A stretch of DNA of 64,000 nt. It comes from an uncultured Clostridia bacterium (GTDB taxonomy: Bacteria; Bacillota; Clostridia; TANB77; CAG-465). The stretch lies in assembly GCA_934169925.1 (NCBI GenBank), contig CAKPOO010000004.1, positions 65,604 to 129,603 of the forward strand, given 5' to 3'. The notes beneath the pieces are model-generated. The model was given only the letters and a program-made list of their open reading frames with translations, was not told the DNA's origin and made no database searches. This document shows, one piece after another, positions 44,667-46,774 of this stretch. Position numbers and translations under genes: made by a program. Within the stretch, counting starts at the first letter, position 1, and the number at the start of each line of letters is the position of its first letter.

Positions 44667-45362
44667 CTAAGCCTCTCTTATTAATACTAAAGGTGTTAGA
44701 GTTTTATCTTGACCTGCAGGATTATCTTTTATCATTTTTCTTAATTCATCTTCTGTATTTGTTATAGCATCTGATTTTCCTAATATTTCTGCATTAAAAT
44801 CATTAGCATCAACAATCATTGCTTTAATTCCTAGTTTTTCATAAATTTCATTACATACACCAGTTGAATTTTCAGGTATTCTTATTCCAAATTCTGAATA
44901 ATCTTCAAAAACATGACCATAAAATCCATCAAGTCCACTAATTTCTGGTCCAACTATTTTGTAAAAAATTCCTTTTTTTCCAAATAATTTTCCAAAACCA
45001 CCAGCAATAGCTGCATATATAACTTTAAATCTTCCACATAAATCTATTGCAAATTGCATTTTATAAGGATTATCAACACCAACCCCTGCATCACTACGCA
45101 TTGCAAATTTAGATAAAAATTTAGCTAATCCAGATAATTTCATATCTTTTTTATATACTACTCTTTTTTGACATAAACTAATTATCTTTTCACTTATTGA
45201 AAGAATGTCTCCTTCTTCATATATAGGTTTTACATATTTATCAATAATATCTATATAACTTTCTCCAAGAGTTATATAGTGAGTTTGAATAGCATTTCTC
45301 TTATATTTTTTACCATCAACATCAATTATAACTTCTTTTCCATCTAACGCTTTAAATTCCAT
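44667..45362 (-). CDS. CofE-like (F420-0:gamma-glutamyl ligase family) protein
   Basis: Family-like pattern (GDILSISEKIISL...GVGVDNP...MIVDAND). Likely start is MEFKALDGK. Confidence 0.45.
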   Translation of the reverse strand: MEFKALDGKEVIIDVDGKKYKRNAIQTHYITLGESYIDIIDKYVKPIYEEGDILSISEKIISLCQKRVVYKKDMKLSGLAKFLSKFAMRSDAGVGVDNPYKMQFAIDLCGRFKVIYAAIAGGFGKLFGKKGIFYKIVGPEISGLDGFYGHVFEDYSEFGIRIPENSTGVCNEIYEKLGIKAMIVDANDFNAEILGKSDAITNTEDELRKMIKDNPAGQDKTLTPLVLIREA

Positions 45363-45461
45363 AAAAACCACCTTATCTTTCGTTAAAAAAAGTATAGTAC
45401 AAAAAAATAAAAAAGTCAATAAAAAATGTAGCTGTTTAAAATAATAAACAGCTACATTTTG

Positions 45462-46774
45462 TCACTTTAAAATAAAATCTTTTGGATCATTTACAATATT
45501 GTCGCCAAGTATACATTCTGAATATTTACAAGCATATTCATCAAGAACCTCTTCTAAAGCTAAAAATAGAACTTTTTCAACTACATTTTTGATAGCTCTT
45601 AAGCCTTCATTTTTTGAAAATGCTAATTTAGAAATCTCATCAACAAATTTTTCATTATAAACAAGCTTAGTACCTTTATCGCAAAATGCTTTTTCATAAG
45701 CTTTTAATGTAGAAATTGTTGAATTTAATATTACATCTTTATATACCTCTAAACCAGACTTTTTGTATTCTACAATAAAAGAACATCTACCAACAAGTTG
45801 CCTTGAAAATCCATAATCAATTATATCTTGAGGTAAAAATGTCTTTTCTGTTTCAGCAACTTTAGGGGATTTTCCACTAAATCCAATAGGTACTTTTTTA
45901 CCTACACCAAGTCTTTCATCACGTATTTCATATAATGATTTGGTAGAATCAAGTTCTTCAAAGGCACCTGCAAAAACAAAGGTTATACCACTAGTATCTA
46001 AATATCCTAAAATAGTGTTATACTCTCCTCTAATTGGTACTTCAGTTCCACTTACATATCCAAGTAAAGTATTTACTACCGATTCGCCACCTACATCTTT
46101 TTGATGATCATTTACATGTCTTAGCTTATCAAACTCATCAATAAGAATTATGCTTCTTTTTGCACGTTCTAAATCTCCATTACATTTTTTATATAAATCA
46201 AAAAACATAGTGTCTGGATCTCTACCATCATAACCTGCAGCTGAAAAATCTGGTGCATTTTCACAAAGGAATGGAACATCTAAAACTTTTGCTATTTGTT
46301 TCATTGTTTCTGTCTTTCCTTCTCCGGATGGAGCTATAAGCAAAAAAGTATTTTTTAACTCATTTACATTTAACTGTAAATTACGATAAATACCTCTAAA
46401 AATAAGAGAGATCTCTTTATCATGACCCTTTAAAGCTTTAAGTACCTTATCCAAAGAATCTTTTTTATCAGGTAAACAATAAGTAATACCATCCTCATTT
46501 TTTGCTACAGGGATACGATGCTTAGTAGGATTTATTTGATTAAAATCATCAAAATCATACGACCCTTCATTCATGCAATCCATCATGTTTATAGCTTCTT
46601 CTACTGCATAAGCACAAAGTAAGCATATATTTGCATCATTTATACTAATAGATACTCCACAAGATTGTCCATCTCTTACTATAGGCCGTTTACATATAGC
46701 ACATGTTTCAACTTTTTTTTTTTTTTACTTTCTAAATTACTTAACTCATAATTTTTTGTATTTTTATCTTCCAT
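45462..46774 (-). pseudogene. ClpX-like AAA+ unfoldase paralog (C4 zinc finger, AAA+ domain, IGF-like loop) interrupted by a 14-nt homopolymer
   Basis: ATG 46774 with RBS GGAGGA encodes MEDKNTKNYELSNLESKKKK. A/T14 (46713-46726) shifts the frame; beyond it VETCAICKRP...CLLCAY continues into ORF 45462-46586. That ORF has LLIAPSGEGKTE, ILIDEFDKL, LDTSGITFVFAGAF and a PIGFSG motif. Confidence 0.7.

What the first reader, a model, noticed from the sequence alone, without database searches (positions are those of the whole stretch)
44667..46774. ClpX paralog with zinc finger and IGF-like loop, disrupted at an A/T14 homopolymer, paired with a CofE-like gene
A second ClpX-like unfoldase has a CxxC...CxxC zinc finger, the AAA+ motifs and a PIGFSG loop that could dock ClpP. 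It sits in an accessory stretch rather than the tig-clpP-clpX context. A 14-nt homopolymer (46713-46726) just after the first 20 codons puts the zinc finger and body out of frame by one base. Tracts of this length are classic slipped-strand phase-variation switches, and also a classic place for sequencing error. Immediately downstream is an F420-0:gamma-glutamyl-ligase-family (CofE-like) gene, unexpected in a low-GC Firmicute; as seen in-window, the pair may form an uncharacterised protein-modification/unfolding module.
Basis: partly seen in the sequence, partly recalled or inferred. Interest (0 to 1): 0.65.

Follow-up and report, generated by a model that had tools for sequence, protein, structure and literature searches.

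The report
Frameshifted accessory ClpX-like gene allele
An uncultured human-gut Clostridia bacterium carries a very divergent extra ClpX-type protein unfoldase, and in one circulating strain lineage a single lost T turned an interrupted lysine tract into a 14-A run that breaks the reading frame; this is a real strain-level allele, but an ordinary kind of event, and the neighbouring CofE-like gene is not its partner.

Summary
On the minus strand, an ATG at 46774 with a GGAGG ribosome-binding site opens a 16-codon leader followed by an A14 run (46713-46726). The zinc-finger and AAA+ body (to the stop at 45462) lies in the -1 frame; 15 or 12 A would give a 437-aa ClpX-like protein.

Thirteen assemblies of the same species carry A7-T-A7 (Lys-Lys-Ile-Lys-Lys) and an intact ORF. 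Six assemblies carry the uninterrupted tract: A14 in five, A13 in one, never in frame. All six share one haplotype. This points to an inherited one-base deletion, not a consensus error. No ON allele was seen, so a working phase switch is not shown.

The protein has a ClpX fold (top 50 PDB hits are all ClpX). It keeps the four Cys, Walker A/B, Arg finger, sensor-2 and IGF. Its pore-1 loop is GYDG, it has no RKH loop, and it scores far below the ClpX equivalog cut-off.

It fills a variable slot after rnpB. Only two species clusters were found to have it, and those two copies are 39% identical. It has its own promoter and terminator.

The CofE-like gene is a conserved gene with its own promoter. 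It travels with VanW, a 173-aa ORF and a T4SS coupling protein in many species, most of which lack any ClpX-like gene. Overall interest is low to moderate.

The parts
46833..46861 (-). Sigma-70-type promoter of the ClpX-like gene, TTGACA-17 nt-TATAAT (12/12 match), just downstream of the rnpB terminator
   Evidence: sequence
46782..46786 (-). GGAGG ribosome-binding site, 7 nt upstream of ATG 46774
46679..46774 (-). 5' reading frame as it stands in the window: MEDKNTKNYELSNLESKKKKKLKHVLYVNGL*, 31 aa. Its first 16 codons are the true N-terminus of the ClpX-like protein.
   Evidence: this 31-aa product is on record on 3 contigs
46713..46726 (-). A14 homopolymer. It derives from A7-T-A7 (AAA AAA ATA AAA AAA = KKIKK) by loss of the T. 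In frame 0 its 3' end reads A_AAA_AAG.
45462..46712 (-). Body frame of the ClpX-like gene (residues 22-437 of the intact protein plus the TGA stop), -1 relative to ATG 46774
46614..46703 (-). Zinc-ribbon region CAIC-x22-CLLC. The four Cys are invariant in the divergent family and in register with the ClpX ZBD.
46311..46334 (-). Walker A, APSGEGKT
46218..46238 (-). Pore-1 loop AGYDGRD (GYDG in place of the canonical GYVG)
46125..46148 (-). Walker B, ILIDEFDK
46011..46040 (-). Position of the ClpX RKH loop. It is shortened to VPIRGEYNTI, with no RKH motif.
45873..45890 (-). IGF loop PIGFSG. [I/M/L/V]GF is conserved across the divergent family. pLDDT is low here, as expected for a flexible loop.
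45783..45794 (-). Arg-finger motif VGRC (the GR is invariant)
45594..45608 (-). Sensor-2 arginine, EGLRA (aligns with GAR of E. coli ClpX)
45421..45455 (-). Terminator-like hairpin of the ClpX-like gene (GTAGCTGTTTA-7 nt-TAAACAGCTAC followed by a T-run). It is also present in strains that lack the CofE-like gene.
   Evidence: read directly in the sequence; not flagged by the scanner
45391..45419 (-). Own promoter of the CofE-like gene, TTGACT-17 nt-TATACT (10/12). The synteny break against L001-type strains and the IS junction in L019 both fall at its upstream edge.
44667..45362 (-). CofE-fold (F420_ligase-like) gene, 231 aa. It is highly conserved across the clade and always followed by VanW-like, a 173-aa ORF and the T4SS coupling protein.
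46890..47231 (-). RNase P RNA (class A), the conserved upstream neighbour that, together with gyrA, marks the slot

Best explanation
The gene encodes an accessory, fast-evolving member of the ClpX family. It has an N-terminal C4 zinc ribbon, one AAA+ module and an IGF-type loop. It is expressed on its own from a consensus promoter.

By homology (inferred, not shown) it forms a hexameric ATP-driven unfoldase. It could dock on ClpP through its IGF loops. Its substrate range probably differs from housekeeping ClpX, because pore-1 is GYDG and the RKH loops are missing.

In the strain lineage of this window, one base was deleted from the DNA: the T that interrupts AAA AAA ATA AAA AAA. This fused two A7 runs into A14 and shifted the zinc ribbon and motor into the -1 frame.

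The allele is inherited and has spread between human hosts. It is therefore a real loss-of-function or hypomorphic allele of a dispensable gene. It is not an assembly error, and it is not an evolved switch.

Some full-length protein is still expected (inferred). RNA polymerase slips and ribosomes slide on A-runs of this length, and the frame-0 sequence ends in A_AAA_AAG, the dnaX -1 slippery heptamer. A zinc-finger-less form from Met64/65 is also possible.

The CofE-like gene downstream belongs to a different, conserved unit: CofE-like, VanW-like, a 173-aa ORF and the T4SS coupling protein.
For: The allele is real and inherited:
- Thirteen loci have A7TA7 and an intact 437/440-aa ORF. The uninterrupted tract is A14 in the window, L009, L010, L115 and L116, and A13 in L008.
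- These come from SPAdes-, MEGAHIT-, scaffold- and Logan-type assemblies of several accessions.
- All carriers share one haplotype: no mismatches in the body, and one private synonymous SNP against the nearest intact haplotype.
- Over 8.7 kb the T loss is the only indel against the nearest intact strains.
- The A15 and A12 in-frame versions of this haplotype are absent from 15 billion proteins.

The gene is functional in the species: dN/dS among intact alleles is 0.17-0.26.

It belongs to the ClpX family:
- NCBIfam ClpX models align end to end (148 bits).
- PDB ClpX sequence matches reach E 1e-33.
- The AF2 model has pLDDT 76.6 and its top 50 Foldseek hits are all ClpX, TMt 0.71-0.82.
- The motifs are laid out.

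It is accessory:
- Only two clusters exist, P0001 and P0137 at 39% identity, although the genus is abundant in the data.
- Sister species have other genes or nothing in the slot.

It is a separate unit from the CofE-like gene: own promoter, RBS and terminator.

Precedent for rescue by slippage: an A11 run gives 20-25% transcriptional frameshifting in C. rodentium tssM1 (PMC4256274). Reviews and studies cover slippage and ribosome sliding on A-runs (PMC5009743; PMC4363877).

Gene decay occurs nearby: the T4SS coupling protein is frameshifted inside its Walker A.
Against: - No reads were available, so heterogeneity within a sample cannot be excluded.
- Some of the six assemblies may derive from the same or related samples. 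L009 is 100% identical to the window over 6.7 kb, and several are Hadza data, so independence is less than six-fold.
- A13 in one assembly at about 4x coverage shows either real slippage or error.
- The frameshifted lineage has no further damage in the body. This fits a very recent event but also fits continued use of the gene.
- Whether the genome has clpP or a canonical clpX was not testable.
- ClpP docking, hexamer formation and rescue by slippage are all inferred from homology and literature.
Confidence: 0.65

Rival explanations
1. Phase-variable contingency locus: slipped-strand mispairing at the A-run switches the zinc-finger ClpX-like protein ON (A15/A12) and OFF (A13/A14) within populations.
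For: A 14-nt mononucleotide run inside an ORF is physically hypermutable. Tract length differs between assemblies, 14 against 13. The gene is accessory and fast-evolving, as contingency genes often are.
Against: The tract is not a conserved feature. Thirteen of 19 loci and all other haplotypes have the interrupted, stable A7TA7. All six uninterrupted alleles are OFF, five of them at the same length. The in-frame version is absent from the protein collection. The sister-species orthologue P0137 has no lysine tract. The A13 comes from a contig at about 4x coverage.
Confidence: 0.15
2. Sequencing or assembly artefact: the true sequence is in frame (A15 after a T>A change, or A7TA7), and homopolymer under-calling produced A14.
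For: Long homopolymers are error-prone. Several carrier contigs have low coverage of 3-4x. One assembly gives A13.
Against: The same length was recovered by different assemblers and accessions. The tract is tied to one haplotype with a private SNP. The window shows no other coding indel against its nearest relatives. Intact A7TA7 alleles assemble correctly in 13 loci from the same kinds of data. A single T deletion gives exactly A14, which is the most parsimonious path.
Confidence: 0.07
3. Evolved programmed recoding: the gene is meant to be decoded by transcriptional slippage or -1 ribosomal frameshifting, giving a set ratio of products as in tssM1 or dnaX.
For: An A14 run and an A_AAA_AAG heptamer sit in the right frame. 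There is precedent in PMC4256274.
Against: The frameshifted layout is confined to one recent haplotype, and the ancestral state is in frame. There is no stimulatory RNA structure downstream (z = 0.04) and no internal Shine-Dalgarno upstream.
Confidence: 0.05
4. The ClpX-like and CofE-like genes form a two-gene protein-modification/unfolding module.
For: They are adjacent in this species and in one sister species, L025.
Against: A terminator hairpin and a separate promoter lie between them. L001-type strains have the ClpX-like gene without the CofE-like gene. L024, L028-30 and L031-33 have the CofE-like gene without a ClpX-like gene. The CofE-like family has about 1,500 homologues against two ClpX-like clusters. 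Between the same two species the proteins are 39% and 87% identical. The invariable neighbour of the CofE-like gene is VanW-like.
Confidence: 0.04

Closest known systems
Housekeeping ClpX (E. coli, N. meningitidis; PDB 3HWS, 6PO1, 6VFS, 8ET3)
   Same: Same architecture and fold: C4 zinc ribbon, one AAA+ module, Walker A/B, Arg finger, sensor-2 Arg and an IGF loop. The top 50 structural hits are all ClpX.
   Different: Only 25-30% identical. It scores 148 bits against the 359-bit equivalog cut-off. Pore-1 is GYDG. The RKH loop is deleted. The first Walker A glycine is Ala. The ZBD has a longer spacer, and Pfam zf-C4_ClpX is not detected. It is not in a tig-clpP-clpX context. It is restricted to two species clusters.
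Isolated accessory ClpX paralogues, e.g. Myxococcus xanthus ClpX2/ClpX3 (PMC11423568)
   Same: [quoted passage not shown] ClpX3 is divergent, lacks RKH and is thought to be horizontally acquired. This matches a dispensable, RKH-less, stand-alone copy here.
   Different: ClpX3 lacks the N-terminal Cys domain, which this protein keeps. The M. xanthus copies are 43-65% identical to E. coli ClpX, which is much closer. No function is known here.
Transcriptional frameshifting at poly-A runs (C. rodentium tssM1 A11; Shigella mxiE, mxiA, spa13) and frameshifts at homopolymeric tracts in endosymbionts (Buchnera, Blochmannia)
   Same: An A-run just upstream of a frame break lets RNA polymerase add or drop A's and restore the frame in 15-55% of transcripts (PMC4256274; PMC5009743; PMC3017870 listed).
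   Different: In those cases the layout is fixed in the species and the products were shown. Here it is a recent allele in one lineage, and nothing has been measured.
Homopolymeric-tract phase variation (contingency loci of Campylobacter, Neisseria, Haemophilus, Mycoplasma; from general knowledge)
   Same: A long mononucleotide run inside the 5' end of an ORF of an accessory gene, with length differences between isolates.
   Different: ON and OFF states are not both observed. The tract is not conserved in the species. There is no read-level evidence.
CofE, F420-0:gamma-glutamyl ligase (A. fulgidus; PDB 2G9I, 2PHN, 7ULD)
   Same: These are the only significant structural matches of the downstream protein's model (Foldseek prob 0.91-1.0). 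There is a weak N-terminal Pfam/TIGR04132 match. NCBI names one homologue this way.
   Different: 14-16% identity. TM is only 0.35-0.40, from a low-confidence model (pLDDT 65). The score is below the Pfam cut-off. There is no sequence hit to any PDB chain. No F420 pathway context was seen. Its constant partners are VanW-like and T4SS genes.

Membership tests
ClpX (ATP-dependent Clp protease ATP-binding subunit) | Single AAA+ module with Walker A, Walker B, Arg finger and sensor-2 Arg | tested here: met
   GEGKT, IDEFD, VGR and EGLR all align with E. coli ClpX. The top 50 PDB fold hits are all ClpX.
ClpX (ATP-dependent Clp protease ATP-binding subunit) | N-terminal C4 zinc-binding domain | tested here: inconclusive
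   Four invariant Cys (C25, C28, C51, C54) lie in register with the ClpX ZBD. hhalign gives E 2.4e-4 but only 44% probability. Pfam PF06689 is not detected. The model has pLDDT 50-70 there.
ClpX (ATP-dependent Clp protease ATP-binding subunit) | Pore-1 GYVG loop | tested here: inconclusive
   The Tyr is kept but the motif is GYDG (V to D) in all alleles of the species. Relatives have GYVG, GYFG or GYYG.
ClpX (ATP-dependent Clp protease ATP-binding subunit) | RKH loop | tested here: not met
   A 6-7-residue deletion; the region reads VPIRGEYNTI.
ClpX (ATP-dependent Clp protease ATP-binding subunit) | IGF loop for ClpP docking | tested here: met
   PIGFSG is present and [IMLV]GF is conserved in the divergent family. 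Actual docking was not tested.
ClpX (ATP-dependent Clp protease ATP-binding subunit) | Score above the curated equivalog cut-off (NF003745 / TIGR00382) | tested here: not met
   148 and 129 bits against cut-offs of 359 and 371. A canonical ClpX control scores 662.
ClpX (ATP-dependent Clp protease ATP-binding subunit) | Partner ClpP in the genome and physical ClpXP complex | not testable with these tools
   No clpP lies next to the gene in the window or in any related locus fetched. The rest of the genome could not be reached.
Phase-variable contingency locus | Hypermutable simple repeat in the ORF or promoter | tested here: met
   A14 within codons 17-21.
Phase-variable contingency locus | Both ON and OFF tract lengths found among closely related isolates | tested here: not met
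   Uninterrupted alleles are A14 in five and A13 in one, all OFF. No A15 or A12 version of this haplotype is on record.
Phase-variable contingency locus | Tract-length heterogeneity within one population (reads) | not testable with these tools
   There was no access to reads.
Programmed recoding (transcriptional slippage / -1 ribosomal frameshifting) | Slippery run or heptamer at the frame junction | tested here: met
   A14; frame 0 ends in A_AAA_AAG, and a -1 shift enters the body frame.
Programmed recoding (transcriptional slippage / -1 ribosomal frameshifting) | Frameshifted layout conserved among relatives, with stimulatory elements | tested here: not met
   The ancestral allele is in frame. 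The downstream fold is no better than shuffles.
CofE / F420_ligase (PF01996) | Pfam gathering score over the domain | tested here: not met
   22.9 bits against 25, covering residues 25-85 only. Many close homologues do carry a precomputed PF01996 hit.
CofE / F420_ligase (PF01996) | CofE fold | tested here: inconclusive
   CofE chains are the only significant Foldseek hits (E 5.7e-4, prob 1.0), but TM is 0.40 and the model pLDDT is 65.
CofE / F420_ligase (PF01996) | F420 (or folate) biosynthesis context | not tested
   None was seen in the loci fetched, where the neighbours are VanW-like, a 173-aa ORF and the T4SS coupling protein. The whole genome was not available.

The most novel reading that the evidence does not exclude
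The A14 allele is not a dead gene but a naturally spreading allele that depends on slippage. Full-length zinc-finger ClpX-like protein would be made only through RNA-polymerase slippage or ribosome sliding on the A-run, alongside a 31-aa peptide and perhaps a zinc-finger-less unfoldase from Met64/65. Alternatively, the run flips ON and OFF within gut populations. Either way, this would tune the dose or form of an orphan, hyper-divergent ClpX-type unfoldase that occupies a variable slot next to rnpB in an uncultured human-gut Clostridia genus.
Probability: 0.15. Interest if true: 0.5.

Novelty: new member of a known kind. Interest (0 to 1): 0.3.

Why it matters
The main value is practical. This case shows how to tell a real frameshift allele from a homopolymer error without reads: compare independent metagenome assemblies of the same haplotype. 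It also corrects a tempting 'module' reading that rests only on adjacency in one window.

Biologically, it documents a very divergent, RKH-less ClpX-type unfoldase with a charged pore-1 loop. The protein is under purifying selection within its species yet only 39% identical in the sister species, and it is absent from the other sister species examined.

If the A14 allele is partly rescued by slippage, it would be a natural hypomorph, useful for asking what this unfoldase does. None of this opens a long-standing question. Accessory ClpX paralogues and homopolymer frameshifts are both well known.

Tried and rejected
- Phage or plasmid origin. PHROGs gives a hit to an unannotated family (phrog_4339, 118 bits). 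But tblastn against phages and plasmids and a scan of IMG/VR found only ordinary ClpX-level similarity of 32% or less. Rejected for lack of evidence.
- Anti-phage defence component. PADLOC gave only marginal AAA hits (DolB, IetA, E about 1e-5). The other occupants of the slot have no defence or other annotation. This led nowhere.
- GTDB species representatives. The scan found no close relative, so the species could not be named beyond 'Clostridia bacterium' MAGs.
- JGI metagenomes. A scan for uninterrupted-tract alleles gave 0 hits.
- The 20.7 kb block as a mobile element carrying the CofE-like gene. I first read window 24694-45418, which L001-type strains lack, as an insertion. I rejected this because sister species have the same CofE-like/VanW/T4CP block next to gyrA, and because the block holds housekeeping-type genes. 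It is better described as a presence/absence or rearrangement polymorphism.
- L019 as an excised circular form. Rejected: its left end is an IS/transposase-like sequence, not the other end of the block.
- A frameshift-stimulating RNA structure downstream of the tract. None was found.
- Whether the genome holds clpP or a canonical clpX. This could not be reached with the look-ups available.
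Full report
**1. What is in the sequence**

The window is 25.2% G+C. The following lie in order on the minus strand:
- gyrA (47294-49753)
- an RNase P RNA of class A (46890-47231)
- a 12/12 consensus promoter, TTGACA-17-TATAAT (46861-46833)
- a GGAGG ribosome-binding site and ATG 46774

The ORF reads MEDKNTKNYELSNLES and then enters a run of 14 A (46713-46726). This is the only homopolymer of 10 or more in the window. In that frame translation stops after 31 aa.

The frame that encodes VETCAICKRPIV...CLLC and a 374-aa AAA+ body down to TGA 45462 is -1 relative to the ATG. 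Fifteen A (or twelve) would give one ORF of 437 (436) aa.

A run of this length is not statistically unusual in DNA this A+T-rich: 38 of 100 shuffles contain one.

**2. What the protein is**

- NCBIfam's two ClpX equivalog models align over almost the whole repaired protein (residues 19-429 to model positions 2-400). They score only 148 and 129 bits against cut-offs of 359 and 371. A canonical ClpX control scores 662.
- Sequence search of the PDB gives ClpX chains at E about 1e-33, then mitochondrial CLPX, then HslU.
- An AlphaFold model built from the family alignment has mean pLDDT 76.6, and 85-95 over the AAA+ body. Its best 50 PDB matches are all ClpX chains, with TM 0.71-0.82 normalised to the target.

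In the alignment these features are kept:
- Walker A (APSGEGKT)
- Walker B (ILIDEFDK)
- the Arg finger (VGR)
- the sensor-2 Arg (EGLRA)
- the IGF tripeptide (PIGFSG)

These features differ:
- The pore-1 loop is GYDG instead of GYVG, in every allele of the species.
- The RKH loop is deleted.

The four N-terminal Cys are invariant in the divergent relatives and lie in register with the ClpX zinc-binding domain. The profile-profile support is modest (E 2.4e-4, probability 44%), and Pfam's zf-C4_ClpX model does not fire.

**3. How rare it is**

Among 5.8 billion clustered proteins the only close relative is one 90% cluster of 18 sequences (P0001). Everything else is ordinary ClpX at about 30% identity.

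An exhaustive HMMER pass over 1.84 billion representatives adds one protein at 39% identity (P0137). It also adds a thin set at 31-37% that share the missing RKH loop and the zinc ribbon.

No close relative exists in the phage, plasmid or IMG/VR collections, nor in the GTDB species representatives.

GyrA places the organism among uncultured human-gut 'Clostridia bacterium' MAGs. Many sister species have GyrA 84-89% identical.

**4. The tract in other assemblies**

I fetched every contig on record that encodes the intact protein, the truncated body or the 31-aa leader.

- Thirteen loci read AGT AAA AAA ATA AAA AAA GTT (A7-T-A7, KKIKK). They have an intact ORF of 437 or 440 aa.
- The uninterrupted tract occurs in the window and in L009, L010, L115 and L116 as A14. 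It occurs in L008 (the same contig as L014) as A13.
- All carriers share one haplotype. There are no mismatches in the gene body, and one private synonymous SNP separates them from the nearest intact haplotype, L013/L018.
- The protein of L013 (P0124) equals the repaired window protein except for Ile21.
- Over 8.7 kb, the loss of that T is the only indel between the window and its nearest intact relatives. The other indels, against more distant strains, are in short A/T runs that lie outside the ORFs listed.
- Exact look-ups show that the in-frame A15 and A12 versions of this haplotype are not among 15 billion proteins. The 31-aa frame-0 peptide is on record.

I conclude that a single T deletion produced A14 once, and that the allele is inherited and found in several samples.

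Caveats: some of these assemblies may come from the same or related samples. L009 is 100% identical to the window over 6.7 kb, and several are Hadza data. Coverage is low in some (3-4x). I had no reads.

**5. Switch, error or decay?**

A consensus error is unlikely for the reasons above.

An evolved phase switch is not supported:
- The tract is not a species feature.
- All six uninterrupted alleles are out of frame, and five have the same length.
- The sister orthologue has no lysine tract.

A 14-nt run must slip often during replication. The persistence of A14 as the consensus therefore suggests that in-frame revertants are not strongly favoured (inference).

The intact alleles are under purifying selection: dN/dS is 0.17-0.26, against 0.08 for gyrA between the same strains. 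So the gene works in the species.

The gene is nonetheless dispensable at a larger scale (section 6). Decay occurs nearby as well: the T4SS coupling protein at 40094-42128 is frameshifted inside its Walker A motif.

Some rescue is expected on general grounds:
- An A11 run gives 20-25% transcriptional frameshifting in C. rodentium tssM1, and Shigella genes give 15-55% (PMC4256274).
- Runs of 9 A or T already slip in bacteria (PMC5009743).
- Ribosomes slide on iterated AAA codons (PMC4363877).
- In frame 0 the tract ends in A_AAA_AAG, the dnaX heptamer (my own knowledge), and a -1 shift there enters the body frame.

There is no stimulatory structure (z = 0.04), as expected for a recent accident. 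Rescue was not measured.

**6. The CofE-like gene and the 'module'**

The ClpX-like gene ends in an 11-bp hairpin plus T-run (45421-45455). The next gene has its own promoter, TTGACT-17-TATACT (45419-45391), and its own RBS.

Its product (231 aa, ATG 45362) has these properties:
- A sub-threshold, N-terminal-only F420_ligase hit.
- A weak TIGR04132 hit.
- No PDB sequence hit.
- A mediocre model (pLDDT 65) whose only significant structural matches are A. fulgidus CofE (prob 0.91-1.0, TM 0.35-0.40).

So 'CofE-fold family' is reasonable, but 'F420 ligase' is not established.

It is not an oddity. There are about 1,500 homologues, the listed ones 77-100% identical, one of them named F420-0--gamma-glutamyl ligase by NCBI. 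In every locus examined that extends past its 3' end, it is followed by a VanW-like protein, a 173-aa ORF and the T4SS coupling protein.

Co-occurrence with the ClpX-like gene is loose:
- L001-type strains have the ClpX-like gene followed directly by yabG, rpsT and the S10 operon, with no CofE-like gene.
- L024, L028-30 and L031-33 have the CofE-like gene preceded by a transposase, a DUF898 ORF or an unannotated 473-aa ORF.
- L021-23 have neither gene.
- Only L025, a sister species, repeats rnpB, ClpX-like, CofE-like, VanW. There the ClpX-like proteins are 38.5% identical while the CofE-like proteins are 87% identical.

The ClpX-like gene thus sits in a variable slot between rnpB and a conserved block. 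The pair is not a module.

**7. Comparison with known systems**

The closest functional analogy is the isolated, deletable ClpX paralogues of Myxococcus xanthus. One of them, ClpX3, is divergent, lacks RKH and is thought to be horizontally acquired (PMC11423568).

Against the ClpX family definition:
- Met: the AAA+ motifs and IGF.
- Inconclusive: the zinc domain and pore-1.
- Not met: the RKH loop and the equivalog score.
- Untestable here: ClpP partnership.

I therefore file it as a divergent ClpX-family member that probably works like a ClpX unfoldase. It is not a ClpX orthologue.

**8. Verdict**

The most likely account (about 0.65) is a real, inherited one-base deletion. It created an A14 run and a frameshift in an accessory, fast-evolving ClpX-type gene, with incidental partial rescue by slippage possible.

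The rivals are a true phase switch (0.15), an artefact (0.07), evolved recoding (0.05) and a ClpX/CofE module (0.04).

This is a new member of known kinds, and interest is about 0.3.

Noticed in passing
window 40094-42128 (-): The T4SS coupling protein (VirD4/TraG-like) is split by a one-base frameshift inside its Walker A motif. The window reads ILVVGRIWCW* where sister species L021 reads ILVVGGSGAGKSACY. The same two-ORF split (165 + 496 aa) is called in all strains of this species that cover the gene, and similar splits appear in L025 and L031. L021 and L028 have an intact gene of 643-654 aa.
   Followed up: partly
window 24694-45418: L001/L002/L007-type strains of the same species lack a 20.7 kb block; there the ClpX-like gene is followed directly by yabG. 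The block runs from the CofE-like gene to an undecaprenyl-phosphate-translocase-like gene. It also includes VanW-like, the coupling protein, MgsA/RarA, a D-Ala-D-Ala carboxypeptidase, an HD-GYP response regulator, CvpA and a T2SSF-like protein. The break falls exactly at the CofE-like promoter.
   Followed up: partly
window 43040-44647 (-): The VanW-like protein (PG_binding_4 + VanW + G5) is only 45-47% identical between sister species whose CofE-like proteins are 85-87% and GyrA 87-88% identical. Like the ClpX-like gene, it evolves unusually fast.
   Followed up: no
window ~46533-46541 (-): A 9-nt indel (three extra residues, Ser-Asp-Phe, in DFDDFSDFNK) in the linker between the zinc ribbon and the AAA+ module separates the 440-aa and 437-aa allele groups of the species.
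   Followed up: no
L019:1-590 and L024:9242-10642: In some strains or species, IS/transposase sequence (UPF0236 family in L024) lies immediately upstream of the CofE-like promoter, at the same junction as the block's presence/absence break. This suggests a recombination hot spot.
   Followed up: partly
window 42419-42940 (-) and 42180-42329 (-): A 173-aa ORF (74-80% identical across sister species, no family hit in Pfam, NCBIfam or PADLOC) and a roughly 50-aa ORF always lie between VanW-like and the coupling protein. Their function is unknown.
   Followed up: no
window 46890-47231 (-): RNase P RNA, bacterial class A (263 bits), lies between gyrA and the ClpX-like gene. In L028-30 an ORF of 143 aa was called between gyrA and the next gene, where rnpB lies in the window, so it is probably a spurious call (not checked).
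   Followed up: partly
L026:5090-6343: A 33%-identical member of the same RKH-less ClpX-like group (P0140) sits in a chromosomal context: a ClpC-like AAA+ gene, a 791-aa ORF, a DZR zinc-ribbon protein, the ClpX-like gene, ylxM and ffh. In some fast-evolving lineages, such proteins might therefore be the resident ClpX rather than an extra copy.
   Followed up: no
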